A stretch of 13,072 nt of DNA, taken from IMG/VR virus record IMGVR_UViG_2671180695_000008; one strand, given 5' to 3'. Within the stretch, counting starts at the first letter, position 1; each line of letters starts with the position of its first letter. This DNA is from a virus (lineage: Duplodnaviria > Heunggongvirae > Uroviricota > Caudoviricetes). Position numbers and translations under genes: made by a program. This document shows positions 158-11,877 of this stretch, piece by piece. The notes below the pieces were generated by a model. It did no database searches, had not been told where the DNA came from, and was given only the letters and a program-made list of their open reading frames with translations.

Positions 158-1026
158 AACGAACGCCTGTCCTGATTGATGTGAACGGCGTTCCGCTTCG
201 TGAGAGTCTCAGCTACAACGGGGGCGGTGCAGGATTTGGCGGGCAAATGGCGGAGTGGTTGCCACCGGCGCAGAGTGCCGATGCAGCCCTGCTGCCTGCG
301 TTGCGTCTGGGGAATGCCCGGGCAGATGATCTGGTGCGCAATAACGGGATAGCGGCCAATGCGGTGGCCCTGCATAAGGATCATATTGTCGGGCATATGT
401 TTCTGATCAGCTACCGTCCGAACTGGCGCTGGCTGGGGATGCGGGAGACTGCGGCAAAAAGTTTTGTCGATGAGGTGGAGGCGGCCTGGTCGGAATACGC
501 CGAAGGGATGTTTGGCGAGATCGACGTGGAAGAGAAACGCACGTTTACGGAATTTATTCGTGAAGGTGTGGGCGTTCATGCGTTTAACGGCGAAATCTTT
601 GTGCAGCCGGTCTGGGATACGGAGAGCACGCAACTGTTTCGTACGCGTTTTAAAGCCGTGAGTCCGAAACGGGTGGACACGCCAGGACACGGTATGGGGA
701 ACCGTTTTCTGCGGGCCGGTGTGGAGGTCGATCGATATGGTCGTGCCGTTGCGTACCATATCTGTGAGGATGATTTTCCGTTCTCCGGGAGTGGACGATG
801 GGAACGGATCCCGCGTGAACTTCCCACCGGGCGTCCGGCCATGCTGCATATTTTCGAGCCGGTGGAGGACGGGCAGACCCGTGGGGCTAATCAGTTTTAC
901 AGCGTCATGGAACGGCTGAAGATGCTCGATTCCCTGCAGGCAACACAGCTTCAGTCGGCCATAGTGAAGGCGATTTATGTCTATCATCTCACCGTAGTTG
1001 CCCGCATCGTTCGCCAACTCCACTGA
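154..1026 (+). pseudogene. Portal protein (lambda gpB-like), N-terminal fragment interrupted by an inserted element
   Basis: Translation matches the lambda gpB N-terminal half by recall (GNARADDLVRNNG, FEPVEDGQTRGAN, MLD.LQ.TQLQSAIVKA). Similarity ends after ...SAIVKAIY (codons through 978), followed by 16 unrelated codons (VYHLTVVARIVRQLH) and a stop. The remainder of the portal resumes at 11871. Confidence 0.85.
967..979. other. Candidate attL core (AAGGCGATTTATG) inside the portal coding sequence
   Basis: The same 13-mer with one mismatch (AAGGCGATGTATG) recurs at 11865..11877. Both copies are in the same codon phase of the portal frame, encoding K-A-(I/M)-Y. Confidence 0.65.
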
Positions 1027-1103
1027 AACCCTTGCTGCGTCTGGAATGTCGTTTTCCATGCTTTTGATGACCGTTCATCACCCTTCCAGTTTTTCGCGGT
1101 TTT

Positions 1104-1156
1104 GTGTATTGCAATGTGTATTGCAAATTGGCGATCGGGATGGGTGTGTATTGCAA
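1104..1156. repeat. Three direct copies of GTGTATTGCAA just upstream of int; candidate integrase arm-type binding sites
   Basis: Copies at 1104..1114, 1116..1126 and 1146..1156. Related copies lie at the opposite end of the element (11770..11790). Confidence 0.55.
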
Positions 1157-1174
1157 ATCTCTTGAGGGCTTTTA

Positions 1175-2416
1175 ATGGCTATTGAAAACAAACTCAGTGA
1201 CAAACTGTTAAAGAGTCTTGTCGGAAAACGGCAGGACAAACAAAAAACAATAGCGGATGGGCGCGGGTTGTCTGTGCGTGTAAGCATGGTTGGGGGGATC
1301 AGCTTTGTTTTTTACTATCGTCTTGGTGGCAGGGAATCCCCTCCGGTATGGCTTACACTTGGTCGCTATCCTGACATGTCTCTTGCAACGGCCAGGCGCA
1401 TGCGTGATCAGTGCCGTGAATGGCTGGCTGAAAATCTGGACCCCCGCAGGCAAATAAAACTTGCTGCCGAAAAAACTATGCAACCAGTGACCGTAAGGGA
1501 TGCGCTGTTTTACTGGTACGACAATCACGCCACAACAGCCAGAAAAGAGCATGAATATTTAATAAAACGATTTGAAAAGCATATCTTCCCCTATATCGGT
1601 GATATGGCTATAGAACAGTGCAAATTACACACATGGCTTACCGTCTTTGACAGGATCAAAAAAAATGCGCCTGTTATGTCTGGTGCAATTTTTCTTGATA
1701 TCAAACAGGCGTTGCGTTTTTGTCGCGTCAGGCAATACATCGCGTGCGATCCCTTTGGAGATATTAACGTAAGTTATGTCGGGCGCTCATCCGGTATAAG
1801 GGATCGCGTTCTTAATATCAATGAAACCGCTGATGTATGGTCTTATGCTTACGGTAATAATTTGCTAACTCTGTCATCAATATATAACCGAAGAATAATG
1901 GTTATCTGCCTGGTGTTTGGTTGCCGACAGCAGGAGGCGAGGCTATCCACCTGGGACGAATGGGATTTAAAAAACTGGGTATGGACAGTCCCAAAAGAGC
2001 ACAGCAAAAACAAGGAGGCTATAGTAAGGCCTGTTCCTGACGGAATAAAACAATGGATCGTTAATCTTTACGCAGAAACAAAAAATCGCGGTTATGTTGT
2101 CGGTTGTGCTTTGCAAAGGGCGACAATAACAGGGGCTGCAAACAGAATATGCAGGCGTCTTGGTCATGATACTAATGGCTTGTGGTGCATACATGATTTC
2201 AGGCGCACATTTTCCACTACGCTTAATGATATGGGGGCGGATCCTTATATTGTCGAACTTCTTTTAGGTCATAAAGTGAAAGGGGTTGCTGGTGTTTACA
2301 ATAAAAGCAGGCATATAAAGAAAAAACTTGAGGTGCTTAATATGTGGGTTAATTACCTTAATACGATAGCAGGATTTAACAACAACGTTATCGAGCTTAA
2401 TAAAGAGGTGGTGTGA
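1175..2416 (+). CDS. int: Tyrosine recombinase / integrase (P4-type)
   Basis: 413 aa ORF. N-terminal arm-binding-like region and a C-terminal catalytic region with HDFRRTF...LLGHK...GVAGVY motifs typical of phage integrases. First gene inside the insertion, next to the junction and arm-type repeats. Confidence 0.9.
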   Translation: MAIENKLSDKLLKSLVGKRQDKQKTIADGRGLSVRVSMVGGISFVFYYRLGGRESPPVWLTLGRYPDMSLATARRMRDQCREWLAENLDPRRQIKLAAEKTMQPVTVRDALFYWYDNHATTARKEHEYLIKRFEKHIFPYIGDMAIEQCKLHTWLTVFDRIKKNAPVMSGAIFLDIKQALRFCRVRQYIACDPFGDINVSYVGRSSGIRDRVLNINETADVWSYAYGNNLLTLSSIYNRRIMVICLVFGCRQQEARLSTWDEWDLKNWVWTVPKEHSKNKEAIVRPVPDGIKQWIVNLYAETKNRGYVVGCALQRATITGAANRICRRLGHDTNGLWCIHDFRRTFSTTLNDMGADPYIVELLLGHKVKGVAGVYNKSRHIKKKLEVLNMWVNYLNTIAGFNNNVIELNKEVV

Positions 2417-2417
2417 T

Positions 2418-2675
2418 ATGGCAATTTATTCTCTTGTTGATGAAAACGATTTGCGCACAATGAAGGACATTGATCGGTTCATTCGTGAAAAAGAGTGCAT
2501 AGCACTTACCACGCTGGCAAACTCAACACGCTGGAAAATGGAGCAGGCAGGTAAATTCCCGCGACGTATCAAGATCGGTGAACGTGCTGCAGGGTATCGA
2601 CTTTCAGAGGTTCAGGCATGGATCCGTGGTGAGTGGCATCCTGGATGGAAACCTGGAAAAACAAAACAGCAATAA
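2418..2675 (+). CDS. alpA: AlpA-family HTH regulator / excisionase-like protein
   Basis: 85 aa; motif ...ALTTLANSTRWKMEQAGKFPRRIKIGERAAGYRLSEVQAWI matches the AlpA (Phage_AlpA) fold pattern. Its start overlaps the int stop, and a strong SD (AGAGGTGG) precedes it. Confidence 0.85.
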   Translation: MAIYSLVDENDLRTMKDIDRFIREKECIALTTLANSTRWKMEQAGKFPRRIKIGERAAGYRLSEVQAWIRGEWHPGWKPGKTKQQ

Positions 2676-2688
2676 CCAGTAAATAATG

Positions 2689-2711
2689 CCCCTCATCACG
2701 AGGGGTTTTTT
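2689..2711 (+). terminator. Rho-independent terminator after alpA
   Basis: Stem CCCCTC (2689..2694) pairs with GAGGGG (2700..2705) around loop ATCAC, followed by TTTTTT (2706..2711). Confidence 0.8.
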
Positions 2712-2731
2712 GTCTATAAGGTAAAAACGCG

Positions 2732-3310
2732 ATGAATAAAAATATTGCTGTGACGGGCAAGGGGTACGCTCGTCCAGTGAAAAAATTCTGCGATATTCGT
2801 GATCTCGTCGTTCTGCGCTTTGATAGTGTGAACGTTCGTGTGGTGTATCTGAACGGCGATCCGTGGTTTGTTGCAAAAGATGTTTGTGCTGCGCTGGAAC
2901 TAACCAATTCGCGTACGGCGTTGCAGATGCTTGATGATGATGAAAAGGGAGTAAATTTAACTTACACCCCAGGAGGAAATCAGAATATGAGAATTATCTC
3001 TGAGTCAGGTTTCTACAAACTAATAGCCCGCAGCCGCAAAGCAACGACGCCTGGCACATTTGCTCATCGTTTCAGTAACTGGGTATTCAGAAATGTGATA
3101 CCAGGTATCAGAAAAACGGGGACTTATGGTATCCCGTGGGGTGCATTACAGGATTTTTCCCGCCGTAAAGAGCAATATCAAATAAGTGCCAGCGAGAAGG
3201 GGAGGGAGCTACAGGCATGTAAGCGCAAAAAGCGTGAGCTGGAGGAAGAAGAAAAAACGCTGATACGTGAATATCAGCCTGAGTTTTACTTTGGTAACCG
3301 CATTCAGTGA
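2732..3310 (+). CDS. Bro-N domain protein (phage antirepressor-like)
   Basis: 192 aa; the segment VRVVYLNGDPWFVAKDVCAALELTNSRTALQMLDDDEKG...ISESGFYKLIARSRKATTPGTFAHRFSNWV has the Bro-N / AntA N-terminal pattern (D/E-PWFVAKDV...L.....A). The C-terminal part is charged and probably coiled. Confidence 0.7.
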   Translation: MNKNIAVTGKGYARPVKKFCDIRDLVVLRFDSVNVRVVYLNGDPWFVAKDVCAALELTNSRTALQMLDDDEKGVNLTYTPGGNQNMRIISESGFYKLIARSRKATTPGTFAHRFSNWVFRNVIPGIRKTGTYGIPWGALQDFSRRKEQYQISASEKGRELQACKRKKRELEEEEKTLIREYQPEFYFGNRIQ

Positions 3311-3340
3311 CAAAACAAAGGCGACCGCAAAAGGGTCGCC
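3311..3340 (-). terminator. Hairpin acting mainly as a minus-strand intrinsic terminator, between the convergent Bro and minus-strand genes
   Basis: Stem GGCGACC (3320..3326) pairs with GGTCGCC (3334..3340) around loop GCAAAAG. On the minus strand it is followed by TTTGTTTTGT (plus 3311..3319). No U-run follows on the plus strand. Confidence 0.6.
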
Positions 3341-3406
3341 AGTGGGAACAAGGGAAAACAAAAGCATCACCAACAATGCCACATTTGCGGCTGGTGGGCA
3401 ATGTGA

Positions 3407-3586
3407 TCAGTCAGATTTGGTTCGTTCCAAGGTTTGCAACGAGAGCTTTTTCCTGTGCTCTTTAAGGAATTTCTCAAGAGCAAACGAACAAGGTGCGAAT
3501 CTTTCTGATTCATGTTCATGCGCTATATTTTTGCGTCGTCTCTTACGAGTTGGTGATGGTGTTTTGGTTGATTCTGTGTCGCTCAT
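3407..3586 (-). CDS. Small basic hypothetical protein (59 aa), absent from the supplied ORF track
   Basis: Translated by hand from the minus strand: MSDTESTKTPSPTRKRRRKNIAHEHESERFAPCSFALEKFLKEHRKKLSLQTLERTKSD*. An AGGA lies 8 nt upstream of the ATG; it follows the 3644..3949 gene and precedes the minus-strand terminator. Confidence 0.45.
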   Translation of the reverse strand: MSDTESTKTPSPTRKRRRKNIAHEHESERFAPCSFALEKFLKEHRKKLSLQTLERTKSD

Positions 3587-3643
3587 GGTGCTGTCCTGTA
3601 AAGCAATGCGCCTGCGTTCCTCAAACTATGGCGCTGATATTGG

Positions 3644-3949
3644 CTATTCATGCTCTTTGACCTTGCGTCGCTGGAGTTCTTCACGCGCGACGGTGACGAG
3701 TTGCCCGATCTCCTCGGCTGCTTTGATGCCGATTTGTTCGACCTTAGCCAGGGCATCCAGTGACGACACAAGGGGATTTTCTCCGCTGCCTTCTGCTTGG
3801 CGGCGGGCTATTTCTCCGCGCATGGCGGTTACGATAAATCCGGCATTGCTTTCACCGTCCAGCTTAACGGATTCCATCCCTTGCATAACATCTAGTGGGA
3901 CTCTGACAGTTGTCAGTTGTGATTTTGCGTTTTTGTTAGCCGTTGCCAT
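3644..3949 (-). CDS. Hypothetical small regulator (possible DNA-binding protein), divergent from the rightward operon
   Basis: 101 aa with a strong SD (TAGGAGTTTCAGAA-ATG on the minus strand). It is transcribed divergently from a palindromic operator region. No family is recognised with confidence; a ribbon-helix-helix-like N-terminus is possible but unverified. Confidence 0.55.
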   Translation of the reverse strand: MATANKNAKSQLTTVRVPLDVMQGMESVKLDGESNAGFIVTAMRGEIARRQAEGSGENPLVSSLDALAKVEQIGIKAAEEIGQLVTVAREELQRRKVKEHE

Positions 3950-3970
3950 TTCTGAAACTCCTAATCATCG

Positions 3971-4048
3971 GTGTGTTTCAGTATACACAAAAAAAGAAAT
4001 ACAAAAAGCCTTGACGTGTGTTTCATGCGCTCATAACATGAAACACAC
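3971..4048. promoter_or_regulatory. Divergent control region with a 12-bp perfect inverted repeat, a third half-site and a candidate rightward promoter
   Basis: GTGTGTTTCATG (4016..4027) and its reverse complement CATGAAACACAC (4037..4048) are separated by 9 bp. A further GTGTGTTTCA half-site lies at 3971..3980. TTGACG (4011..4016), a 17-bp spacer and TAACAT (4034..4039) overlap the palindrome. Confidence 0.55.
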
Positions 4049-4139
4049 CGAAAGGATTGTTGAAATACAAAGAGCAACGCCCCGCAGTGCTGGGAACACA
4101 TACGGGGCGTCTAACCAACAACGTAAACTAGGAGCCGTT

Positions 4140-4337
4140 ATGGTTGCTGTAAATCATATACCACACCTTGTACACACACAAACGGCCTTTGTGTGGCGTT
4201 TTCTGGCACTGAGTGCCGGAGAATCTCAAATCATCCACGTAACCGCCTGGACGGAACGCGAAGCGCGTAGCCGTTGCCCGTCCGGTTGTGTTGCTGTATT
4301 CGCTGCAAAAATCCGCCAGGGAGTGAGTCATGCTTAA
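4140..4337 (+). CDS. Hypothetical small protein (65 aa), possible first gene of the rightward operon
   Basis: ATG preceded by AGGAG at the correct spacing. It shares a frame with a long, compositionally odd ORF (3267..4337) that is otherwise rejected, so coding status is uncertain. Confidence 0.35.
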   Translation: MVAVNHIPHLVHTQTAFVWRFLALSAGESQIIHVTAWTEREARSRCPSGCVAVFAAKIRQGVSHA

Positions 4338-4515
4338 AACCTTCCGTGTATTTGCCCGAGCTGTTAACCCAATAGGCCACACAATTGGTATCGCTCAGAA
4401 TGTGAAGGCTGTTAATGTTCAGACGGCTATTGCTGCGGTGAGAAGCGAATCATCAGAATATGGCTTATCACAAGTCATTATTTCAGCAGTGTATGAATTA
4501 AAAGAGGTGCATTAA
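4330..4515 (+). CDS. Hypothetical protein (61 aa)
   Basis: SD GGAGTGAG upstream. Its stop overlaps the next start (TAATG), suggesting translational coupling. Confidence 0.5.
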   Translation: MLKTFRVFARAVNPIGHTIGIAQNVKAVNVQTAIAAVRSESSEYGLSQVIISAVYELKEVH

Positions 4516-4706
4516 TGCAGGAAATTACATTACACGAAGCCGCTGAACGTGCGCACCAGACAGAAATTATTTGCCGCCTTCTTGAGGTATACCCGAACAA
4601 AATTACAGATGCTGATATATCCGCACTGGCGAGCCTACTGGCGCGTCTTTCGGGAAGTGTCGCTAGTTTTTTGATTGAGGAAGAAAGTAAGCTGGTGGGG
4701 GATTAA
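4515..4706 (+). CDS. Hypothetical protein (63 aa)
   Basis: SD AAGAGG upstream; start is coupled to the preceding stop. Confidence 0.5.
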   Translation: MQEITLHEAAERAHQTEIICRLLEVYPNKITDADISALASLLARLSGSVASFLIEEESKLVGD

Positions 4707-4928
4707 ATGAATACAGAACGGGAAGTCTTTTTTAAATTGTTAGCATGTGCAGAAAGTTCATTAACTTTAAATAATTCAGCAAAAGCAATATTAAATATGT
4801 GGCTTGATTGCATAAATGACAATGAAGATGCAAATATTGCTTATGGCCTGTTGTCACTTATTGATGAATCAGCAGAAAAACTCAATGACGCAATAAATAG
4901 TGCCCTGCTATCAAATAAGTCGAGTTAA
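4707..4928 (+). CDS. Hypothetical protein (73 aa), visibly more AT-rich than its neighbours
   Basis: Starts immediately after the previous stop. Its base composition differs from flanking genes, suggesting a separately acquired cargo gene. Confidence 0.5.
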   Translation: MNTEREVFFKLLACAESSLTLNNSAKAILNMWLDCINDNEDANIAYGLLSLIDESAEKLNDAINSALLSNKSS

Positions 4929-4945
4929 GTCGAGGAATAAATAAT

Positions 4946-5245
4946 ATGGAAATGAAAAATTCTGGCTTTATTGCCAGCGGCCCCGCTCGACCTGAATTTA
5001 TGAACGGCGATATTTACCGCGATAAATACGGCGGCACGGTAACGATTAAAGGCGTGGCAGAACGGCGCATCACTTACCGCCGTGAGGGGTATAGCTATGA
5101 CTGCGTGATGCCTGTTTATCAGTTCCGGCGTGATTTTTCCCTGGTATATGCCGCACCCCGCAGTAAGCCCATCAGCAGGGAAAAAGCGTGGGGAAATATC
5201 CAGAAAATGAAAACCATGATTAACGGATTCAGAGGTAAAAAATGA
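4946..5245 (+). CDS. Hypothetical protein (99 aa)
   Basis: SD GAGGA upstream. Its stop overlaps the primase-helicase start (ATGA), placing it in the replication operon. Confidence 0.55.
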   Translation: MEMKNSGFIASGPARPEFMNGDIYRDKYGGTVTIKGVAERRITYRREGYSYDCVMPVYQFRRDFSLVYAAPRSKPISREKAWGNIQKMKTMINGFRGKK

Positions 5246-6996
5246 AACTGGCACCGAACGTAAAACAGCAGTCACGCGGCATAAAACACAAAGGAACAGA
5301 AGTCATTATTTTTGCGGGTAGTGATGCCTGGGCACACGCGAAACAATGGCAGGAACATGATGCGCGTATGGCCGGAGATAATGAGCCTCCTGTGTGGCTT
5401 GGGGAGCAGCAGCTATCCGAACTGGATAATCTGCAAATTGTGCCGGAAGGCCGAAAATCAGCACGCATATACAGGGCCGGATATCTTGCGCCTGTAATGA
5501 TAAAGGCGATTGGTCAGAAGCTGGCGGCAGCAGGCGTACAGGATGCAAATTTTTATCCTGAGGGTATGCACGGCCAGGAGGTGCAGAACTGGCGCGAATA
5601 TCTGGCCCGTGAACGCCAGAATCTTTCTGATGGTCTGGTCATTGAGCTTCCGGTAAAGCAAAAGGCGCAACTTTCGCAGATGGCGGACAGTGAGCGCGCG
5701 CAGTTGCTTGCCGATCGCTTTGATGGCGTTTGCGTACATCCTGAAAGTGAAATCGTTCACGTATGGCGCGGCGGGGTATGGTGTCCGGTCAGCACAATGG
5801 AACTTAGCCGCGAAATGGTGGCGATCTATTCAGAGCACAGGGCCACTTTCAGCAAGCGCGTAATCAATAACGCCGTGGAAGCGTTAAAAGTTATTGCCGA
5901 ACCAATGGGCGAGCCGTCTGGCGATTTGCTGCCGTTCGCCAATGGTGCGCTTGACCTGAAAACGGGGGAATTTTCCCCGCACACGCCGGAGAACTGGATC
6001 ACCACGCACAACGGCATTGAGTACACGCCACCAGCACCAGGGGAGAACATCCGCGATAACGCGCCAAACTTTCATAAATGGCTTGAGCACGCAGCCGGAA
6101 AAGACCCGCGCAAGATGATGCGTATATGTGCCGCGCTGTACATGATTATGGCGAACCGGTACGACTGGCAGATGTTTATTGAGGCCACCGGAGACGGCGG
6201 GAGCGGTAAAAGTACATTCACACACATAGCCAGCCTTCTGGCAGGGAAACAGAACACGGTAAGCGCTGAAATGACATCGCTTGATGATGCTGGTGGACGT
6301 GCGCAGGTTGTCGGGAGTCGTCTTATCGTCCTGGCTGACCAGCCGAAATATACAGGCGAAGGAACGGGCATCAAGAAAATCACAGGCGGCGACCCCGTGG
6401 AAATTAACCCGAAATATGAAAAGCGTTTCACGGCGGTAATCAGGGCGGTGGTGCTGGCGACCAACAACAACCCGATGATATTCACCGAACGGGCCGGAGG
6501 TGTGGCACGTCGTCGCGTGATTTTCCGTTTCGACAATATCGTCAGTGAGGCCGAAAAAGACAGGGAGCTACCGGAAAAGATTGCGGCTGAAATCCCCGTT
6601 ATTATCCGCCGATTGCTGGCGAACTTTACCGACCCTGAGAAGGCACGGGCTTTACTACTGGAACAGCGTGACGGTGATGAAGCACTGGCAATAAAGCAAC
6701 AGACGGATCCGGTTATTGAGTTTTGCCAGTTCCTGAATTTTCTGGAGGAAGCGCGCGGCCTGATGATGGGTGGCGGTGGTGATTCAGTGAAGTACACGAC
6801 CAGGAACAGCCTTTACCGCGTCTATCTGGCGTTTATGGCATACGCGGGCAGGAGCAAACCGCTAAACGTGGCTGAGTTCAGCAAGGCCATGAAGCCAGCG
6901 GCGAAAGTTTACGGGCATGAATATATTACGCGAAAAGTTAAGGGAGTAACGCAGACCAACGCAATTACAACAGACGATTGCGACGCGTTTTTATAA
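5242..6996 (+). CDS. Replication protein: P4-alpha / D5-type primase-helicase (SF3 P-loop NTPase)
   Basis: 584 aa. Walker A motif ATGDGGSGKST, a D5_N-like segment LPFANGALDLKTGEF and a following NTPase core resemble the C-terminal helicase region of P4-family primases. The N-terminal ~150 aa are not confidently assigned. An iteron array follows immediately. Confidence 0.85.
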   Translation: MKLAPNVKQQSRGIKHKGTEVIIFAGSDAWAHAKQWQEHDARMAGDNEPPVWLGEQQLSELDNLQIVPEGRKSARIYRAGYLAPVMIKAIGQKLAAAGVQDANFYPEGMHGQEVQNWREYLARERQNLSDGLVIELPVKQKAQLSQMADSERAQLLADRFDGVCVHPESEIVHVWRGGVWCPVSTMELSREMVAIYSEHRATFSKRVINNAVEALKVIAEPMGEPSGDLLPFANGALDLKTGEFSPHTPENWITTHNGIEYTPPAPGENIRDNAPNFHKWLEHAAGKDPRKMMRICAALYMIMANRYDWQMFIEATGDGGSGKSTFTHIASLLAGKQNTVSAEMTSLDDAGGRAQVVGSRLIVLADQPKYTGEGTGIKKITGGDPVEINPKYEKRFTAVIRAVVLATNNNPMIFTERAGGVARRRVIFRFDNIVSEAEKDRELPEKIAAEIPVIIRRLLANFTDPEKARALLLEQRDGDEALAIKQQTDPVIEFCQFLNFLEEARGLMMGGGGDSVKYTTRNSLYRVYLAFMAYAGRSKPLNVAEFSKAMKPAAKVYGHEYITRKVKGVTQTNAITTDDCDAFL

Positions 6997-7010
6997 TTTT
7001 TTGTAAAAGC

Positions 7011-7232
7011 CATCTACCCCATCTACCTGAACAAAATAAACGCATATTATTCAACATGATAAGTGGGTATAGGGCTAGGTAGAAGGCTAATAAAAGCTCT
7101 CTACCTCTTCTACCTGATTTTATCAGTTTCAGGTAGCAGGGTAGACGGCAGGTAGAGGAGTCAAAAAGCTATCTACCCGCTGAAAGCCGCGCCATTACTG
7201 ACATGATGAGCATTCGGGTAGATGGGTAGAGG
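7011..7232. repeat. Iteron array; candidate replication origin
   Basis: About 11 copies of the core TCTACC / GGTAGA in both orientations within ~220 bp (for example CATCTACCCCATCTACC, CTCTACCTCTTCTACC, GGTAGCAGGGTAGACGGCAGGTAGAGG, GGTAGATGGGTAGAGG). It lies directly downstream of the primase-helicase gene in an otherwise non-coding stretch. Confidence 0.7.
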
Positions 7233-7280
7233 GGGGGAGGCACAACTAAAAACTTTTTAAACGAGGGGGGGTGAAAATAA

Positions 7281-7595
7281 ATGCGCATACATAAAAATCA
7301 CTTAACAAACATGCCAGCCGAAAACATGAATCAGGGGCGACAAATGACCAAAATTCGCAGAGACAGAACACAGGCAAAATATAAAGCGTTAGACATGACA
7401 GAGCTTTCCTTAAAGGTGGCAATCAAAGCGATAGACCACCACACACGGGCAGGATACGCGAAGGAACATCCCGACCTGATAAGCGCATTCATGACCACAG
7501 CAGCGGCAAACTTTGCCACGCTGACAGAACGGGAGATTGCCGAAGCGGAACAGGTGACAACCATCAATGTTAAAACCGGAGAGCAGACAGCATGA
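7281..7595 (+). CDS. Hypothetical protein (104 aa)
   Basis: G-rich SD (GAGGGGGGG) upstream. Its stop overlaps the next start (ATGA). The start codon is uncertain because internal Met codons exist. Confidence 0.5.
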   Translation: MRIHKNHLTNMPAENMNQGRQMTKIRRDRTQAKYKALDMTELSLKVAIKAIDHHTRAGYAKEHPDLISAFMTTAAANFATLTEREIAEAEQVTTINVKTGEQTA

Positions 7596-8014
7596 CAGCA
7601 CAGATAGCGGCTTACGGGCGGCTGGTGGCTGACCCGCAGTTAAAGACCACCAGCAAAGGGACACAAATGGCGATGGCGAGTATGGCGGTTCCCCTGCCGT
7701 GCAGCCAGGCAGATGACGGAACGGCGACGATGTGGTTATCCGTCCTGGCGTTTGGCAGACAGGCCGACGCACTGGCAAAACACCACAAAGGCGAACTGGT
7801 GAGCGTGGCGGGTAACATGCAGGTAAGCCAGTGGACAGGCCAGAACGGCGAAACGCGGCGGGGCTGGCAGGTTATCGCAGACAGCGTAATCAGTGCGCGA
7901 ACGGCGCGACCGGGCGGCAAAAAAGGCCAGCAGGGGCAGGCCACTGACGCACTGAACAGGGCAAAACAACAGTCGGGGAATGATGATCCGTACGGCGATA
8001 ATATACCGTTTTAA
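7592..8014 (+). CDS. ssb: Single-stranded DNA-binding protein-like (OB fold, C-terminal ...NIPF tail)
   Basis: 140 aa with the pattern GRLVADPQL...G...A.......W.SV.AFG..A..LAK..KGELV.V.G......W....G..R.....ADSV, then a Gly/Gln-rich linker ending DDPYGDNIPF. This resembles the SSB OB core and its acidic ...DDDIPF protein-interaction tail. Confidence 0.7.
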   Translation: MTAQIAAYGRLVADPQLKTTSKGTQMAMASMAVPLPCSQADDGTATMWLSVLAFGRQADALAKHHKGELVSVAGNMQVSQWTGQNGETRRGWQVIADSVISARTARPGGKKGQQGQATDALNRAKQQSGNDDPYGDNIPF

Positions 8015-8021
8015 ATTCTGC

Positions 8022-8225: not shown

Positions 8226-9272
8226 ATGAGTATGGTTGATTTATATTCGCCTACACAGCTTGTGCAGGTGGCTAATGCTGAAGATGTGCAAAAAAAATTA
8301 AATGCGTTGTTTACCAGTTTGTTTTTCACTCGCTCGGTAATGTTTGAATCGAGAGACATTATTCTTGATACGATCGACGATCCAAATATCCCGATCGCGG
8401 CGTTTTGCTCTCCTATGGTGGGCAGTAAAGTTTCACGAGATGAGGGATACGAATCAAAAACAATTCGTCCAGGTTATATGAAGCCGAAAAGCAGCATTGA
8501 TCCAAATAAGTTAGCTGTGCGCCCTGCTGGTGTGTCACCTGAGCAATACAATGCTTTTGGGGCGCGTAATATTAAAGTTAAACAGGCGATTGTAAATCAG
8601 GCTAAAGCTATTCGTGCACGTATTGAATGGCTTGCTGTTCAGGCAATCACAACGGGGAAAAATATCATTGAGGGCGATGGTATTGAACGTTATGAGCTGG
8701 ACTGGAATATAAAACCACAAAATATCATCACTCAGTCTGGCGGTACTGAGTGGTCAGGTAAGGATAAAGAAACTTTTGATCCAAATGATGATATTGAGAG
8801 CTACGCAGAATTTAGTGAGGGCGTCACTAATATCATCATTATGGGTGGTAATGTATGGAAGAAATACCGTTCATTCAGAGCGATAAAAGAGGCTTTGGAT
8901 ACCCGTCGTGGTTCTAATTCCGAACTGGAAACGGCCCTTAAAGACCTTGGTGATTCGGTGAGTTTTAAAGGGTATATGGGCGATGTTGCGATTGTTGTTT
9001 ACAGCGGGCGTTATACCGACGAGGACGGAACAGAAAAACATTTCCTTGATCCTGATTTGATGGTGCTTGGCAATACGGCTCTTCAGGGGATTGTCGCCTA
9101 TGGCGGTATTCAGGATCCGGAGCTAATCCGAATGGGGCTGACTAAAGCCGAACTTGCACCGAAAAACTATATTGTGCCTGGTGATCCGGCTATTGAATAT
9201 GTGCAGACACATTCAGCACCACAGCCAATACCGGCCCGCATCAATCGTTTTGTTACCGTTCGCATTGGCTAA
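8226..9272 (+). CDS. Major capsid protein (lambda gpE-like)
   Basis: Motifs NIITQSGGTEWS, DTRRGSNSELETA, GDVAIVVYSG and MVLGNT match lambda E as recalled. The chosen start MSMVDLYSPTQL parallels lambda MSMYTTAQL and has SD AGAGGA; the ORF track's upstream start at 8145 is less likely. Confidence 0.85.
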   Translation: MSMVDLYSPTQLVQVANAEDVQKKLNALFTSLFFTRSVMFESRDIILDTIDDPNIPIAAFCSPMVGSKVSRDEGYESKTIRPGYMKPKSSIDPNKLAVRPAGVSPEQYNAFGARNIKVKQAIVNQAKAIRARIEWLAVQAITTGKNIIEGDGIERYELDWNIKPQNIITQSGGTEWSGKDKETFDPNDDIESYAEFSEGVTNIIIMGGNVWKKYRSFRAIKEALDTRRGSNSELETALKDLGDSVSFKGYMGDVAIVVYSGRYTDEDGTEKHFLDPDLMVLGNTALQGIVAYGGIQDPELIRMGLTKAELAPKNYIVPGDPAIEYVQTHSAPQPIPARINRFVTVRIG

Positions 9273-9281
9273 GGGGGAGCA

Positions 9282-9623
9282 ATGGCTACTCATTACACTG
9301 AACTCATGGCTGGCACTGAAGCACTGGTGACTACGCTGGGGATATTTTCAGCTAATAAAGGGGTAATTCCTGCATTTACGCCACTGATGCAGGAAGATGC
9401 AACAGGTGCACTGGTGGTATGGGATGGTTCGAGCGTAGGTAAAGCGGTTTATGTTTCCGCTGTACAAATCGACACAGCGAAAAAAACACAGGCACAGGTT
9501 TATAAGACAGGTGTTTTAAATGTTGATGCTCTGAACTGGCCTGAGTCTGTAAAAGAACTGTCGGCAAAGGTTGCCGCGTTTGTTGGCTCAGGTATTTCTG
9601 TTCAGCCGCTGGCTCGTGTGTAA
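9282..9623 (+). CDS. Head decoration protein (lambda gpD-like)
   Basis: 113 aa; the pattern TPLM....G.LV.WDG...G.AV.......T.....YK.G......L.WPE matches lambda D as recalled. SD GGGGGAG upstream. It follows the capsid gene, the reverse of the lambda D-E order. Confidence 0.75.
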   Translation: MATHYTELMAGTEALVTTLGIFSANKGVIPAFTPLMQEDATGALVVWDGSSVGKAVYVSAVQIDTAKKTQAQVYKTGVLNVDALNWPESVKELSAKVAAFVGSGISVQPLARV

Positions 9624-9634
9624 AGGGGGATACA

Positions 9635-10018
9635 ATGCAGAATCATTACAATGACCTTAAGCCAATTGCCGAAATGATGTATCCGGATCCAGCAGTAGAG
9701 GAATTAAAGGCTATTGCTGACAAAATGCGTTTAAGTGAACGCCTTGTTGATATGAATCAGGTGATGGAACTTACTACCCTTAGCCGTCGCACATTGCTAA
9801 ACCTTGAGGCTCGCGGAGAGTTCCCCGAACGCGTACAGGTTACGGAAGGGCGTAAGGCCTGGTATTTAAGTGAAGTGATCGACTGGATAAACAATATTCC
9901 TCGATCTTCTGAATATTGCCGCGTACCTGTCCCAAAAAAGCCAGATGCGGCGCTATGCCTCAAGATTGAGCGTGTACGTCGCAATGCACGGGATGGTCGC
10001 TATAAGTTGATTGGTTGA
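9635..10018 (+). CDS. AlpA/MerR-like HTH domain protein (second AlpA-family member)
   Basis: 127 aa; the segment VDMNQVMELTTLSRRTLLNLEARGEFPERVQVTEGRKAWYLSEVIDWI fits the AlpA-type HTH pattern. It has an N-terminal extension and a basic C-terminus, a GGGGGA SD upstream, and lies immediately upstream of the cos site. Confidence 0.6.
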   Translation: MQNHYNDLKPIAEMMYPDPAVEELKAIADKMRLSERLVDMNQVMELTTLSRRTLLNLEARGEFPERVQVTEGRKAWYLSEVIDWINNIPRSSEYCRVPVPKKPDAALCLKIERVRRNARDGRYKLIG

Positions 10019-10029
10019 TGAAATTAGGG

Positions 10030-10108
10030 CCCGTTCTGGCTGGCGGGTCCTTTCCGGCGATCCGGTAGGCTACGGGGCGGCGACCTCGCGGGTTTTCGCT
10101 ATTTATGA
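10030..10108. other. Lambda-type cos site (cosQ-proximal sequence plus cosN with the 12-nt cohesive end GGGCGGCGACCT)
   Basis: 10072..10108 ACGGGGCGGCGACCTCGCGGGTTTTCGCTATTTATGA is identical to the recalled lambda cosN / left-end sequence (cohesive end at 10075..10086). The upstream GGGTCCTTTCCGGCGATCCGGTAGGCTACG closely matches the recalled lambda right-end sequence. Downstream cosB-like sequence has diverged, and a Nu1-like gene follows. Confidence 0.85.
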
Positions 10109-10219
10109 GCCTTTTTCGGGTGCTGGTGGTGGTTTTGTTGTTCGCTCTATCTCTATGAATAAAAAGGAAAAGATAAAGCCAATACACCAACCTGAAACAT
10201 TACTTAAGTGGGGATATTG

Positions 10220-10762
10220 ATGAAATCGCACCTGATGAACAAAAAAAACATGGCGCAAAGCTGCCATGTAAGTGCGACAGCGTTCGACAAGTGGGGAGTG
10301 ACTCCCGTTGAACGTAAAGGCCGCGAGGCGTTTTATGATGTTGCCAGCGTAATAGACAATCGGGTTAGCAATGCAATTAACCAGATTACAGACGACAAAG
10401 GCGAGATTGATGATGATGAACTCCTACGAGTCAGGATCAGATTGCTGACAGCACAGGCAGAGGCGCAGGAGCTTAAAAACGAGCGCGAACGCGGCGACGT
10501 TATTGATACCGCGTTTTGTATATACGTGCTTTCAAAATTGGCGAGTCAGATTTCTTCAATCATGGACAGCCTGCCGCTTGCCATGACAAGGAAGTTTCCC
10601 GACATGAAGCCGTCTATGCTGGATGGACTGAAAAAAGAAGTTATCAGAGCCTGTAACGCATGCGCAAAACTTGACGAAAACATACCGCTGATGCTGTCCG
10701 ATTATCTGATGGAAACTGCCGGAAACGTACCGGATAAGTTGCAGCCGAATAAAGATAAGTAA
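10220..10762 (+). CDS. Terminase small subunit (lambda Nu1-like)
   Basis: Matches lambda Nu1 by recall (RLTRAQADAQELKNARD...ETAFC.FVLSRIAGEIASILDGLPL...RFPE compared with RLLTAQAEAQELKNERERGDVIDTAFCIYVLSKLASQISSIMDSLPLAMTRKFPD). Start is uncertain: ATG at 10220 (GGGGA SD) is chosen, with alternatives GTG 10208 and ATG 10235. It sits downstream of cos as in lambda. Confidence 0.85.
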   Translation: MKSHLMNKKNMAQSCHVSATAFDKWGVTPVERKGREAFYDVASVIDNRVSNAINQITDDKGEIDDDELLRVRIRLLTAQAEAQELKNERERGDVIDTAFCIYVLSKLASQISSIMDSLPLAMTRKFPDMKPSMLDGLKKEVIRACNACAKLDENIPLMLSDYLMETAGNVPDKLQPNKDK

Positions 10763-10773
10763 CGTAGTACGCT

Positions 10774-11055
10774 ATGACTGAATCCGAAATACTGCGATTA
10801 ATCCGCCGTGCTTGTGGAATCAGCAAGCAGCATGACGAACAGGCCACGCAGCCGGACAGCGTGACCGCAGATAATTATGTGCGTGTAGTGGCTGAGGTGA
10901 TGCGCCGTGACGGTATTGAGCTTAACGGCGTGGATATGCGCAACATACGAACAAGAGTCCTTGAGTTGCTGGCATATCGTCGCCGTTCTCAACAACGGAG
11001 GGAGAGCGCGAAAAACACTTACCAGTGGAAGAAGCCGGAACGATTGCGGCGGTAA
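10774..11055 (+). CDS. Hypothetical basic protein (93 aa) in the position where lambda encodes the large terminase
   Basis: ORF starts 11 nt after the TerS stop and is Arg-rich. No convincing family match; no obvious SD, so possibly translationally coupled. Confidence 0.45.
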   Translation: MTESEILRLIRRACGISKQHDEQATQPDSVTADNYVRVVAEVMRRDGIELNGVDMRNIRTRVLELLAYRRRSQQRRESAKNTYQWKKPERLRR

Positions 11056-11070
11056 CTTGCTGATATTCCC

Positions 11071-11094
11071 GATAACGCAAAATTGCGCTGGCTG
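11071..11094. repeat. Direct repeat GATAACGC-N5-TTGCGCTGGCTG (copy 1; copy 2 at 11257..11280)
   Basis: The two 24-bp copies differ at 3 positions and lie 186 bp apart in the non-coding right arm. Each is followed by a TTGCA/TGCAA-type near-palindrome. Confidence 0.5.
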
Positions 11095-11306
11095 ACTTGT
11101 TGCATTGCAAAAAGTTAAGCAGGAAGGCACGGCCTGTAAGATGGGATGCAGTAAGTAGTTCAAGGCTACCTTGTGCTGGCACGCACAGTTAAGCCGTCGG
11201 TGCTGGATATCCCCCACTGGGGGAAAAGCTGGCTACATCCCTCACATCTGAGGACTGATAACGCGACATTGCGCTGGCTGGCAAAGTGCAAAATTGCACG
11301 ATGGCC

Positions 11307-11468
11307 TAACCCATTGATTATTTCGAAAACCTGCAATGCAGGAAATCGGGGAAGTAAGCCTAAGCTATTGATTGTTTCGAAAACCCCCATTGGGGGATGT
11401 CGGGAAAGTAAGACTAACCCATTGATTCTTCCACAATCCTCAATTTGAGGAGGCCGGAACGTCTACAT
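11307..11468. repeat. Tandem ~54-bp repeat (3 units) each containing a 5-bp-stem, 3-nt-loop hairpin with covarying stems; candidate structured RNA or recognition array
   Basis: Units 11307..11360, 11361..11414 and 11415..11468 share TAA(C/G)C(C/T)ATTGATT...TTCGAAAAC and CGGG.AAGTAAG flanks. Internal hairpins are CCTGC-AAT-GCAGG (11330..11342), CCCCC-ATT-GGGGG (11384..11396) and CCTCA-ATT-TGAGG (11438..11450). The third unit is more diverged. Confidence 0.6.
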
Positions 11469-11769
11469 AGCTGCATCGCCGTAATGATGATTCAGCCCAC
11501 CAGCCAAATCAGCACAGCAACGACAGAATAGCCCGACACAGAAAAACCACGAATATGGGGTTTTTGTTATGACATGGTCATGATGACCACTCATACAAAA
11601 CAGGTAAAGCCCACCAGCCTGATTAAAGGTTAACCGGAAAAAAGCCAGGTATCCAATCTCGATATGGGGATCCCTATATCGACATTAACGCCCACTAAAA
11701 CTGTGCATATATGCATAGAAAAAGCATCCACCAGCTTTATGACGGATGCCGCTCATCTTATAAATAATC

Positions 11770-11790
11770 GTGTATTGCAGTGTGTATTGC
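11770..11790. repeat. Two direct copies of GTGTATTGC(A) near the right junction; candidate integrase arm-type sites
   Basis: GTGTATTGCA at 11770..11779 and GTGTATTGC at 11782..11790, in the same orientation as the three copies beside int. An AT-rich tract lies between them and the att core. Confidence 0.5.
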
Positions 11791-11864
11791 GACTCCTTTA
11801 AACGATAGGTCTGAGCATTCGTAATGTACTGTTTTTAAATTTTATTTTTTCCTGTCTTTTCATA

Positions 11865-11877
11865 AAGGCGATGTATG
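11865..11877. other. Candidate attR core (AAGGCGATGTATG)
   Basis: Matches 967..979 at 12 of 13 positions. Portal homology resumes here (IKAMYAATIE...). Confidence 0.65.

What the first reader, a model, noticed from the sequence alone, without database searches (positions are those of the whole stretch)
967..11877. Cos-packaged, capsid-encoding satellite-like element with a lambda-type helper dependency
One bounded insertion combines int, alpA, a primase-helicase with iterons, SSB, lambda E-like capsid and D-like decoration genes, an exact lambda cosN and a Nu1-like TerS. It lacks portal, scaffold/protease, large terminase and tail genes, all of which sit in or beside the host lambdoid prophage. 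This gene mix does not match the classic P4 layout (no sid/psu/delta recognised) or cos-only PICIs that lack capsid genes as I recall them, so it may be an uncharacterised satellite family.
Basis: partly seen in the sequence, partly recalled or inferred. Interest (0 to 1): 0.9.

Follow-up and report, generated by a model that had tools for sequence, protein, structure and literature searches.

The report
Known satellite embedded in prophage portal gene
The 10.9-kb insert is a real phage satellite sitting inside the portal gene of a lambda-like prophage, but this element and its lifestyle ("helper-embedded PICI") were catalogued in 2023, so it is an ordinary member of a known kind.

Summary
Window 967-11877 is a precisely bounded 10,898-bp insertion, flanked by the 8-bp repeat AAGGCGAT. 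It carries int, alpA, Bro-N, a P4-type primase with an iteron origin, SSB, lambda E- and D-like head genes, a lambda-type cos and a Nu1-family TerS. It has no portal, protease, TerL or tail genes.

It splits the portal gene (lambda B cognate) of a lambdoid prophage. Removing it in silico restores a 533-aa portal ORF, and 1,856 complete E. coli genomes hold the uninterrupted site.

The claim of an uncharacterised family does not hold. Copies 99.6% identical in CP011416 and CP006834 are listed by Tommasini, Mageeney and Williams (NAR Genom Bioinform 2023) as HE-PICI "11.B_Phage_portal_2_241", with the same identity block. The window also has their HE-PICI-specific doubled TGTATTGC motif in both arms.

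Capsid and decoration genes are normal in E. coli PICIs. The model EcCICFT073 has them (c1499, c1500), and its primase is 98% identical to this one. Integrase, AlpA, primase-replicase, capsid gene and TerS are the five PICI core components.

The likely mechanism is inferred. Helper late transcription drives excision, which repairs the portal gene. The element then replicates itself, and its own TerS directs helper TerL to its cos.

Verdict: already known; low interest.

The parts
154..974 (+). 5' fragment of the helper prophage portal gene (lambda B cognate). The broken ORF reads on into the element and stops at 1026.
   Evidence: Pfam Phage_portal_2, E = 7e-63, profile positions 2-242. PGAP annotates it as a portal pseudogene in L001.
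967..974 (+). attL identity block AAGGCGAT (crossover region)
   Evidence: Read directly from the sequence. The same block 'aaggcgat' is given in the supplement table of PMC10111431.
1103..1125 (+). Doubled arm motif tgTGTATTGCaatgTGTATTGCa. A further half-site lies at 1145-1158.
   Evidence: It matches the HE-PICI-specific attP motif tgTGTATTGCantgTGTATTGCa. It starts about 132 bp from the core centre, as reported in PMC10111431.
1175..2416 (+). Tyrosine integrase
   Evidence: Pfam Arm-DNA-bind_3, Phage_int_M and Phage_integrase. It is 54% identical to the 11capE integrase and 40% identical to the EcCICFT073 integrase.
2418..2675 (+). AlpA-family excisionase / transcriptional regulator
   Evidence: Pfam Phage_AlpA, E = 5e-14
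2732..3310 (+). Bro-N domain protein (anti-repressor-like); the 'Bro zone'
   Evidence: Pfam Bro-N, E = 5e-20. PHROG 2593, anti-repressor, E = 4e-85.
3644..3949 (-). YlcI/YnfO-family small protein, the only leftward gene. It is divergent from the replication operon.
   Evidence: PGAP name in L001. PHROG 6522. 89% identical to its counterpart in 11capE.
3968..4051 (.). Divergent control region. A 13-bp perfect inverted repeat TCGGTGTGTTTCA/TGAAACACACCGA brackets a promoter-like site at 4011-4039.
   Evidence: These are consensus and repeat matches only; function is inferred.
4140..4337 (+). Icd-like small protein
   Evidence: PGAP name in L001. PHROG 1743 and 29966.
4330..4928 (+). Three small ORFs of unknown function (61, 63 and 73 aa)
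   Evidence: PHROG 3672, 1478 and 2196, all of unknown function
4946..5245 (+). DUF4222 protein
   Evidence: Pfam DUF4222, E = 9e-24
5242..6996 (+). P4-type primase/helicase (Pri)
   Evidence: Pfam D5_N, DUF5906 and Pox_D5. 98% identical over all 584 aa to the EcCICFT073 Pri.
7005..7233 (.). Replication origin with TCTACC iterons in both orientations
   Evidence: 10 of the 10 TCTACC hexamers in the window lie here. Repeat families. The alignment with the region 3' of the EcCICFT073 primase gene averages 77% column identity and the iterons coincide.
7344..7595 (+). Small ORF of unknown function
   Evidence: PHROG 1231. PGAP-called CDS in L001.
7592..8014 (+). Single-stranded DNA-binding protein
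   Evidence: Pfam SSB, E = 6e-16
8232..9272 (+). Lambda E-family major capsid protein homolog
   Evidence: Pfam Phage_cap_E, E = 4e-41. 43% identical to the helper's E, 98.8% to the 11capE copy and 55% to EcCICFT073 c1499.
9282..9623 (+). Lambda D-family head decoration protein homolog
   Evidence: Pfam HDPD, E = 4e-15. 45% identical to the helper's D and 54% to EcCICFT073 c1500.
9635..10018 (+). Second AlpA-family HTH protein (127 aa), immediately upstream of cos
   Evidence: Pfam Phage_AlpA. PDB 8c3t AlpA family, E = 8e-11. PHROG 2790. 95% identical to its 11capE counterpart. No similarity to the EcCICFT073 protein at that position.
10043..10120 (+). cos site. The cosN cohesive-end 12-mer GGGCGGCGACCT is at 10075-10086. 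The sequence downstream, where cosB would lie, differs from the helper.
10220..10762 (+). Nu1-family small terminase (TerS). The N-terminal DNA-binding region has diverged; the C-terminal half is conserved.
   Evidence: PHROG 57 over the full length, E = 4e-51. Pfam Phage_Nu1 profile positions 79-162 only. 34% identical to the helper's Nu1. No similarity to RppA.
10774..11055 (+). Conserved 93-aa ORF of unknown function
   Evidence: PHROG 1561. 76% identical to the last ORF of EcCICFT073. The same-size ORF sits at the right end of other PICIs.
11304..11465 (.). Three tandem 54-nt units, each a conserved box followed by a short hairpin of variable sequence
   Evidence: Function unknown.
11769..11791 (+). 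Second copy of the doubled arm motif, cgTGTATTGCagtgTGTATTGCg
   Evidence: Motif described in PMC10111431.
11865..11872 (+). attR identity block AAGGCGAT
   Evidence: The attR sequence in Supplementary File 4 of PMC10111431 matches window 11815-11877.
11865..12644 (+). 3' fragment of the helper portal gene
   Evidence: Pfam Phage_portal_2 profile positions 238-354. Joining it to the 5' fragment restores a 533-aa ORF.

Best explanation
The segment is a helper-embedded phage-inducible chromosomal island (HE-PICI) of the catalogued group B:Phage_portal_2:241. It is a 10.9-kb Gram-negative cos-type PICI, integrated by its own tyrosine integrase into codon ~241 (Pfam Phage_portal_2 profile position) of the portal gene of a lambdoid prophage, and it points the same way as the late operon.

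Shown here:
- It is a discrete element with precise att sites.
- It splits the portal gene, and in-silico excision repairs the ORF.
- It carries a replicon 98% identical to the experimentally validated EcCICFT073 replicon.
- It carries a lambda-type cosN.
- It carries its own Nu1-family TerS and its own E- and D-family head genes.
- It lacks every other virion gene.

Inferred mechanism:
1. While integrated, it keeps the helper's portal gene broken.
2. After SOS induction of the helper, late transcription from the helper runs into int and alpA.
3. Int and AlpA excise the element, which restores the portal gene.
4. Pri and SSB replicate the circle from the iteron origin.
5. The element's TerS has a diverged DNA-binding N-terminus and a Nu1-like C-terminus. 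It binds the element's own cosB and recruits the helper's TerL (gpA), which can cut the lambda-type cosN.
6. DNA is packaged into heads built with helper portal and protease, then joined to helper tails.
7. If the heads are full lambda size, four genome copies (43.6 kb) would fill one.

The role of the element's own E and D homologs is not known.
For: Identity with the catalogued group:
- Hits H13 (CP011416) and H17 (CP006834) match window 851-11905 at 99.6% identity.
- The same records and coordinates are listed as HE-PICI Eco2613.11 and Eco4623.11 B_Phage_portal_2_241, with identity block 'aaggcgat' (PMC10111431 supplement).
- The published attL and attR sequences match the window.

Discrete element in the portal gene:
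- att repeats.
- Portal profile positions 242 and 238 at the break.
- Restored 533-aa ORF.
- The uninterrupted site is found in 1,856 genomes.
- Doubled TGTATTGC motif in both arms.

Helper context:
- The full Nu1-A-W-B-C-D-E...J late operon surrounds the insert.
- In strain EC28 the surrounding prophage is a Rac-type prophage at ttcA with early genes present.

Modules:
- Pri is 98% identical to the EcCICFT073 Pri, and the origin is homologous. The pri-ori function of EcCICFT073 was shown experimentally (PMC6092414).
- cosN is exact, about 80 nt are shared with the helper's cos, and the sequence then diverges.
- TerS is a full-length family member but only 34% identical to the helper's Nu1, with similarity concentrated in the C-terminal half.
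- The element is absent from all 50,697 phage records except for its cos.

Timing: for the related element 11capE, excision was observed late, after the composite had replicated (PMC10111431 and its preprint).
Against: - No experiment exists for this element or for the B:241 group. Induction, excision, packaging and transfer are all inferred from 11capE and EcCICFT073.
- For 11capE no plaque-forming helper virions could be detected, and many HE-PICI helpers look truncated. This copy may therefore be stranded.
- A terminator-like hairpin follows alpA at 2688-2706. Read-through of late transcription into the rest of the element would need Q-type antitermination or the element's own promoters.
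- The TerS-TerL interaction and binding of TerS to the element's cosB are untested.
- In EcCICFT073, deleting the capsid or decoration homolog did not relieve interference with phage lambda, so these genes may contribute little.
Confidence: 0.9

Rival explanations
1. It is an uncharacterised satellite family, distinct from P4, PICI and cf-PICI.
For: It differs from the EcCICFT073 model in three ways. It has a TerS instead of Rpp. It has a second AlpA paralog. It integrates into a prophage gene rather than a chromosomal gene.
Against: - Near-identical copies are catalogued as HE-PICI.
- All five PICI core components are present.
- Pri is 98% identical to that of EcCICFT073.
- The capsid, decoration and AlpA2 proteins are 95-99% identical to those of 11capE.
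- TerS-bearing Gram-negative PICIs were already noted in 2018.
Confidence: 0.03
2. It is an immobile remnant. The element, the surrounding prophage or both are defective, and the insertion now simply inactivates the prophage's portal gene.
For: - No plaque-forming units were obtained for the 11capE composite.
- Many helpers appear truncated.
- Some genomes carry IS elements inside the element (H3, H4 and H24).
Against: - All ORFs of this copy are intact.
- 50 complete genomes carry it at 80% coverage or more, and the 25 listed are 98.9-99.7% identical. The published catalogue places copies in helper prophages at different chromosomal sites: ybhC, icd and 'R'. That implies recent mobility.
- The att sites and arm motifs are intact.
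- The EC28 helper retains early, lysis, head and tail genes.
Confidence: 0.15
3. It forms its own capsid, as an intermediate between PICI and cf-PICI. Its E- and D-family proteins would assemble satellite-specific (possibly smaller) heads on the helper's portal and protease.
For: - It carries complete E- and D-family genes only 43-45% identical to the helper's, so they are not simple backup copies.
- These genes are conserved at 98-99% between HE-PICIs whose integrases (54% identical) and primases (43% identical) are quite different.
- PmCI172 makes small capsids and encodes a capsid homolog.
Against: - In EcCICFT073 all packaged DNA was phage-sized, and deleting c1499 or c1500 did not restore phage growth.
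- The element has no portal, protease, head-tail connector or TerL gene, which are the cf-PICI-specific components.
Confidence: 0.15
4. It is an ordinary rearranged piece of a single phage, and the E, D, Nu1 and cos copies are the helper's own genes.
For: The element sits inside the head-gene cluster and shares about 80 nt of cos with the helper.
Against: - The helper has separate copies of Nu1, D, E and cos.
- The insertion is precise and empty sites exist.
- No phage record contains the segment.
Confidence: 0.01

Closest known systems
HE-PICI group B:Phage_portal_2:241 (Tommasini, Mageeney & Williams, NAR Genom Bioinform 2023, PMC10111431), for example Eco2613.11 in CP011416 and Eco4623.11 in CP006834
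   Same: It is the same element. Identity is 99.6% over window 851-11905. The 8-bp identity block AAGGCGAT, the attL and attR sequences, the doubled TGTATTGC arm motif, the ~10.9-kb size and the target codon in the portal gene all agree.
   Different: Only about 0.4-1% sequence divergence, plus a different allele of the flanking portal gene. Most hits lose similarity beyond window 851 and 11905.
Eco567.11capE, the founding HE-PICI, in the capsid gene E of an icd prophage in E. coli NRG857c
   Same: - Same four-zone layout.
- Co-oriented insertion in a helper late gene.
- Capsid 98.8%, decoration 98.2% and AlpA2 95% identical.
- YlcI-like protein 89% and SSB 79% identical.
   Different: - Different target gene (E rather than B).
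- Integrase only 54% and primase only 43% identical.
- 11capE has no terS. It carries HEPN and DUF262 genes at its right end instead.
EcCICFT073, the experimentally studied E. coli cos PICI (Fillol-Salom et al. 2018, 2019)
   Same: - Same gene order.
- Pri 98% identical, with a homologous iteron origin.
- E- and D-family genes present (55% and 54% identical).
- cos located between the head genes and the packaging-redirection gene.
- The 93-aa last ORF is 76% identical, and the right-arm repeat units are shared.
   Different: - It is integrated beside phoQ in the chromosome, not in a prophage.
- Integrase 40% identical.
- It uses RppA (144 aa) to reprogram the helper's TerS, whereas this element has its own Nu1-family TerS and no Rpp.
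- It has two cos sites against one here.
- It has no Bro-N gene at the corresponding position.
Satellite phage P4
   Same: Integrase, AlpA-family regulator, D5/alpha-type primase-helicase, helper-type cos and an Icd-like gene. By integrase phylogeny the HE-PICI clade lies in a larger clade containing PICIs and P4.
   Different: No sid, psu, delta or epsilon homologs were recognised. No C4 or isrK immunity RNA was found. The helper is lambdoid, not P2-like.
Capsid-forming PICIs (cf-PICI, for example EcCIEDL933)
   Same: Integrase-AlpA-primase left half, plus a capsid gene and TerS.
   Different: It lacks portal, protease, head-tail adaptor/connector and TerL, the components that distinguish cf-PICIs from PICIs. 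Its capsid protein belongs to the lambda E family (Pfam Phage_cap_E).

Membership tests
HE-PICI (helper-embedded PICI, PMC10111431) | [quoted passage not shown] | tested here: met
   The portal gene is split at Pfam profile positions 242 and 238. All main element genes are on the + strand, like the late operon. The truncated ORF stops 17 codons into the element. Excision restores a 533-aa ORF.
HE-PICI (helper-embedded PICI, PMC10111431) | Integrase belongs to the HE-PICI clade, in the subclade matching the att site | tested here: met
   No tree was built here. However, the element including int is 99.6% identical to catalogued B_Phage_portal_2_241 members. The integrase is 54% identical to that of 11capE against 40% to that of EcCICFT073.
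HE-PICI (helper-embedded PICI, PMC10111431) | Two co-oriented copies of the doubled motif tgTGTATTGCantgTGTATTGCa flanking the attP core at fixed distances | tested here: met
   Copies lie at 1103-1125 and 11769-11791. The downstream copy starts 132 bp from the core centre, as published. The upstream copy ends about 78 bp before the core centre, against a published 81 +/- 2 bp whose reference point is not stated.
HE-PICI (helper-embedded PICI, PMC10111431) | att identity block of the site group (aaggcgat for B:241) | tested here: met
   AAGGCGAT lies at 967-974 and 11865-11872. This is identical to the supplement table and to the attL/attR files.
HE-PICI (helper-embedded PICI, PMC10111431) | Excises from the helper after induction | not testable with these tools
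   Shown experimentally only for 11capE.
Gram-negative PICI (five core components, PMC10085698) | Integrase, AlpA-type regulator, primase-replicase, capsid-morphogenesis gene and TerS, with no tail, holin, portal or head-tail connector genes | tested here: met
   All five are found by Pfam and PHROG searches, and none of the forbidden components lies inside 967-11877. SatelliteFinder itself was not run.
Gram-negative PICI (Fillol-Salom 2018 criteria) | Replication origin with iterons immediately 3' of the initiator gene | tested here: met
   TCTACC iterons at 7013-7230, homologous to the EcCICFT073 origin region.
Gram-negative PICI (Fillol-Salom 2018 criteria) | Helper-phage-dependent induction, packaging and high-frequency transfer | not testable with these tools
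   Needs induction and transduction experiments.
Rpp-type cos PICI (EcCICFT073 mechanism, PMC6739421) | Encodes an Rpp protein that forms a heterocomplex with the helper's TerS | tested here: not met
   Neither the 184-aa nor the 127-aa protein matches any PDB chain corresponding to the Rpp entries 6HLK and 6HN7. There is no BLASTP similarity between the TerS and RppA. The element is therefore not a member of the Rpp subgroup. It probably reaches the same end with its own TerS.
cf-PICI | Encodes portal, protease, head-tail adaptor/connector and TerL in addition to capsid and TerS | tested here: not met
   None of these is found among the element's ORFs.
P4-like satellite | sid/psu/delta capsid-size and transactivation genes, a CI (C4-type) immunity RNA, and P2-type cos | tested here: not met
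   No such protein families were hit. There is no Rfam match at E <= 1. The cos is lambda-type.

The most novel reading that the evidence does not exclude
Two untested possibilities remain.

1. This TerS-bearing HE-PICI subgroup may combine its own Nu1-family TerS with its own E- and D-family head proteins to build satellite-specific heads, possibly of altered size, on the helper's repaired portal. That would make it a functional intermediate between classical PICIs and capsid-forming PICIs.

2. The conserved right-arm array of 54-nt box-plus-hairpin units may be a functional cis element, such as a transcription barrier or a protein-binding array, shared by many E. coli PICIs.

Neither possibility is excluded by the data, and neither has been tested by anyone.
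Probability: 0.15. Interest if true: 0.45.

Novelty: already known. Interest (0 to 1): 0.12.

Why it matters
HE-PICIs are a striking arrangement. The satellite lives inside a structural gene of its own helper, so the helper cannot make portal protein until the satellite leaves. This gives the satellite control in cis over helper assembly and lets it share the helper's replication and late transcription.

That point was made and catalogued in 2023 (491 elements at 14 sites). This window adds only one more near-identical copy.

What is still open:
- Experimental work on the B:241 group, including the timing of excision.
- Whether TerS-based packaging redirection here replaces the Rpp mechanism.
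- What the widely conserved E and D homologs of E. coli PICIs do.

Tried and rejected
- Rfam scan of the whole window at E <= 1, looking for the C4/isrK immunity RNAs reported in some HE-PICI Bro zones: no match.
- tRNA scan for a tRNA attachment site: none.
- PDB sequence search with the TerS-like protein: no hit, so no link to Rpp or to the solved Nu1 domain by sequence.
- The 127-aa protein upstream of cos was considered as an Rpp candidate because it has a MerR/AlpA-type wHTH. It was rejected: it matches an AlpA-family structure (8c3t) and not the Rpp entries, and it has no similarity to the EcCICFT073 protein at that position.
- RNA fold of the 54-nt repeat region: z = -1.4, not significant as a single structure. 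Only the individual short hairpins are notable.
- Searching phage records for an encapsidated copy of the element: only the cos segment matches.
- The promoter scan found fewer sigma-70-like sites than the shuffles did (9 against 16.8), so no promoter assignment is claimed beyond the site in the divergent control region.
- L003 could not be read from the scripting sandbox. The EcCICFT073 comparisons were done with protein comparison and DNA alignment instead.
- No integrase tree was built and SatelliteFinder was not run. Membership rests on near-identity to catalogued members and on feature-by-feature checks.

Full report
**What is in the window.** The six-frame ORF list and Pfam scans show that the two ends of the window belong to one gene.
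- ORF 154-1026 matches the lambda-family portal profile Phage_portal_2 at positions 2-242.
- ORF 11871-12644 matches the same profile at positions 238-354.
- Between them lies a block of lower G+C content (about 0.38-0.50, against 0.55-0.59 in the flanks). Almost all its genes point rightward.

The genes in the block are, in order:
- integrase (1175-2416)
- AlpA (2418-2675)
- a Bro-N protein (2732-3310)
- a leftward YlcI/YnfO-family gene (3644-3949)
- an Icd-like gene and three small ORFs (4140-4928)
- DUF4222 (4946-5245)
- a D5_N/DUF5906/Pox_D5 primase-helicase (5242-6996)
- a small ORF (7344-7595)
- SSB (7592-8014)
- a Phage_cap_E capsid protein (8232-9272)
- an HDPD decoration protein (9282-9623)
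- a second AlpA-family protein (9635-10018)
- a Nu1-family small terminase (10220-10762)
- a conserved 93-aa ORF (10774-11055)

No tRNA gene and no Rfam family was found.

**Checking the observation.**
- *Boundaries.* AAGGCGAT occurs at 967-974 and at 11865-11872. After one mismatch both copies continue with TATG.
- *Excision in silico.* Joining 1-966 to 11865-13072 gives an uninterrupted 533-aa portal ORF.
- *Empty site.* A 494-nt probe across that reconstructed junction matches 1,856 of 5,426 complete E. coli genomes over at least 80% of its length. The ten best matches are single pieces at 99.8% identity. The empty site therefore exists and the insertion is precise.
- *Iterons.* All ten TCTACC hexamers of the window lie in 7013-7230, directly 3' of the primase gene. 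None of 200 shuffles reached ten.
- *cos.* The lambda cohesive-end 12-mer GGGCGGCGACCT occurs once, exactly, at 10075-10086 (0.08 expected). The surrounding 70-80 nt match the cos regions of lambdoid phages at 91-95% identity and the helper's own cos. Similarity stops about 35 nt downstream of the nick site, where cosB would lie.
- *TerS.* It is a full-length family member by PHROG 57 (residues 5-180, E = 4e-51). Pfam Phage_Nu1 recognises only its C-terminal half.

**Context.** The best megablast hit (E. coli EC28, 100% coverage, 99.5% identity) shows the insert inside a complete lambda-like late operon. The order is Nu1, A, W, the 5' part of B, the element, the 3' part of B, then C, D, E, FI, FII, Z, U, V, G, T, H, M, L, K, I, J, Lom and the tail fibre.
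- The helper has its own cos (L001 15331).
- The helper also has its own Nu1, D and E. These are only 34%, 45% and 43% identical to the element's versions.
- The element's copies are therefore not the helper's genes.
- In EC28 the prophage is a Rac-type element at ttcA. It has intR, xisR, recET, kilR, sieB, repressor-region genes, lysis genes and pinR.
- No record in the 50,697-record phage collection contains the element. Only its cos matches.

**Identification.** A literature search led to Tommasini, Mageeney and Williams (bioRxiv 2022; NAR Genom Bioinform 2023, PMC10111431).
- They describe helper-embedded satellites (HE-PICIs): 491 PICI-like elements integrated at 14 sites in cognates of the lambda late genes A, B, C, E, V, T, H, L and J, co-oriented with the target gene.
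- The integrases form one clade.
- The attP carries a doubled motif, tgTGTATTGCantgTGTATTGCa, not found in other PICIs.

Their supplementary table lists two entries that are the same records and positions as my hits H13 and H17:
- HE-PICI Eco2613.11.B_Phage_portal_2_241 at CP011416.1/3698288-3709185
- HE-PICI Eco4623.11.B_Phage_portal_2_241 at CP006834.2/1830842-1841738

Both have the identity block "aaggcgat". H13 and H17 match window 851-11905 at 99.6% identity. The window's attL junction sequence occurs 31 times in their attL file, and their attR sequence equals window 11815-11877. The window carries the doubled motif at 1103-1125 and at 11769-11791. The downstream copy starts 132 bp from the core centre, as published. 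This element is therefore already catalogued.

**Why the gene mix is not unusual.**
- Fillol-Salom et al. [quoted passage not shown]
- De Sousa et al. 2023 list the five PICI core components as integrase, regulator, primase-replicase, capsid-morphogenesis gene and TerS. Of the elements that have all five, 97% are in E. coli.
- I fetched EcCICFT073 (L003) and 11capE (L002) and compared proteins.

| Protein | Identity to EcCICFT073 | Identity to 11capE |
|---|---|---|
| Integrase | 40% | 54% |
| Primase | 98% | 43% |
| Capsid | 55% | 98.8% |
| Decoration | 54% | 98.2% |
| Second AlpA | no similarity to the protein at that position | 95% |
| 93-aa ORF | 76% | no match |

The origin region is also homologous to that of EcCICFT073.

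The element is a mosaic of known PICI modules. The one functional difference from both models is the packaging module. EcCICFT073 has RppA downstream of its cos1, and 11capE has no terS. This element has a Nu1-family TerS in that position, with no similarity to RppA. PICIs that carry a terS homolog were already noted in 2018.

**Mechanism.**
- *Shown here:* a discrete integrative element that breaks the helper's portal gene reversibly; a replicon essentially identical to one shown experimentally to work; lambda-type cosN; its own TerS with a conserved C-terminal half and a diverged N-terminal half; and no other virion genes.
- *Inferred from the 11capE induction data, the Rpp work and established lambda biology:*
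  1. The helper is induced.
  2. Late transcription enters int and alpA. No terminator-like site lies between the portal fragment and int, but one follows alpA at 2688-2706.
  3. Excision repairs the portal gene.
  4. Pri and SSB replicate the circle.
  5. The element's TerS binds the element's cosB and recruits the helper's gpA, which cuts the lambda-type cosN.
  6. Heads use the helper's portal and protease, and tails come from the helper.
- *Packaging arithmetic.* The excised circle is 10,898 bp, so four copies make 43.6 kb. That is about 90% of the lambda genome and within lambda's known packaging range; three copies would be too short. Multimer packaging into full-size heads is therefore feasible, as proposed for EcCICFT073.
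- *Open question.* The role of the element's E and D homologs is unknown. [quoted passage not shown]

**Rivals.**
- A new family is excluded by the catalogue match.
- A rearranged single phage is excluded by the precise empty sites, by the helper's duplicate but divergent copies, and by the element's absence from phage records.
- A stranded, immobile copy cannot be excluded without experiments. Intact ORFs and att sites argue for recent mobility. So does near-identity across 50 genomes, with catalogued copies in helpers at different chromosomal sites.
- A capsid-forming role for the E and D homologs remains possible but has no support.

**Seen in passing.** The 0.8-kb right arm has no convincing ORF, but it holds three tandem 54-nt units at 11304-11465.
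- Each unit is a conserved box followed by a short perfect hairpin. The stem sequence differs from unit to unit while the pairing is kept.
- The same units occur in the right arm of EcCICFT073, in other PICIs at thiM and clpS, and just downstream of minus-strand PerC genes elsewhere.
- On the minus strand each hairpin is followed by TTTTCGAAA, so the units look like weak terminators facing into the element from the right.

**Verdict.** The satellite reading is correct, and the novelty claim is wrong. This is an already catalogued helper-embedded PICI of the group B:Phage_portal_2:241.

Noticed in passing
window 11304-11465; also L003 11052-11260, L006 1449-1610, L007 1311-1625, L008 1517, L009 1517: Three tandem 54-nt units. 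Each has a conserved box (GCCTAACCCATTGATTnTTTCGAAAA) followed by a short perfect hairpin. The stem sequence differs between units (CCTGCA/TGCAGG, CCCCCA/TGGGGG, CCTCAA/TTGAGG, TCGCC/GGCGA elsewhere) but the pairing is kept. The units are shared by the right arms of several E. coli PICIs, and they also sit just downstream of minus-strand PerC genes. On the minus strand each hairpin is followed by TTTTCGAAA, which is terminator-like. There is no Rfam match and the function is unknown.
   Followed up: partly
window 11640-11686: The sequence AAAAAAGCCAGGT followed by the palindrome CGATATGGGGATCCCTATATCG is conserved between this element and the EcCICFT073 right arm. The first part resembles the iteron-bearing repeat at the origin (7005-7024, 80% identical). 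It could be a second site bound by the replication protein, like the crr of P4. Untested.
   Followed up: no
window 3968-4051: A perfect 13-bp inverted repeat, TCGGTGTGTTTCA/TGAAACACACCGA, with a third copy of GTGTGTTTCA at 4016-4025. It brackets a promoter-like site (TTGACG-17-TAACAT, 4011-4039) between the leftward YlcI/YnfO-like gene and the rightward Icd-like/replication operon. This looks like the element's operator and promoter switch.
   Followed up: no
window 9635-10018: A second AlpA-family protein (127 aa) lies directly upstream of cos. It is 95% identical in 11capE but absent from EcCICFT073. Its position in the late/packaging zone suggests a role other than excision.
   Followed up: partly
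window 5242-6996 compared with 8232-10018: The element is a clear mosaic. Its primase and origin are 98% identical to EcCICFT073 but only 43% to 11capE. Its capsid, decoration and AlpA2 proteins are 95-99% identical to 11capE but about 55% to EcCICFT073. Replication and late modules are therefore exchanged between chromosomal PICIs and HE-PICIs.
   Followed up: yes
window 154-1026: The interrupted portal ORF would yield a 290-aa truncated product: about 273 portal residues plus 17 element-encoded residues. Whether such a fragment is made, or interferes with portal assembly, is unknown.
   Followed up: no
L006 1-1200 and L007 1-841: The same 93-aa ORF plus the repeat-unit right end follows a terminase large-subunit gene in islands next to thiM and clpS, probably capsid-forming PICIs. 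The right-end module is therefore shared across PICI types.
   Followed up: no
one search hits H3, H4, H24: Some genomes carry this element with IS1, IS4-like or IS66-like insertions inside it. These are decaying copies.
   Followed up: no
L001 441-7753: The EC28 helper prophage carries a block of apparent cargo genes between its early region and the Q/lysis region: a BCCT transporter, DUF2254, a LysR regulator, gamma-glutamylcyclotransferase and an MFS transporter. It also has iss (bor-like) after the lysis genes.
   Followed up: no
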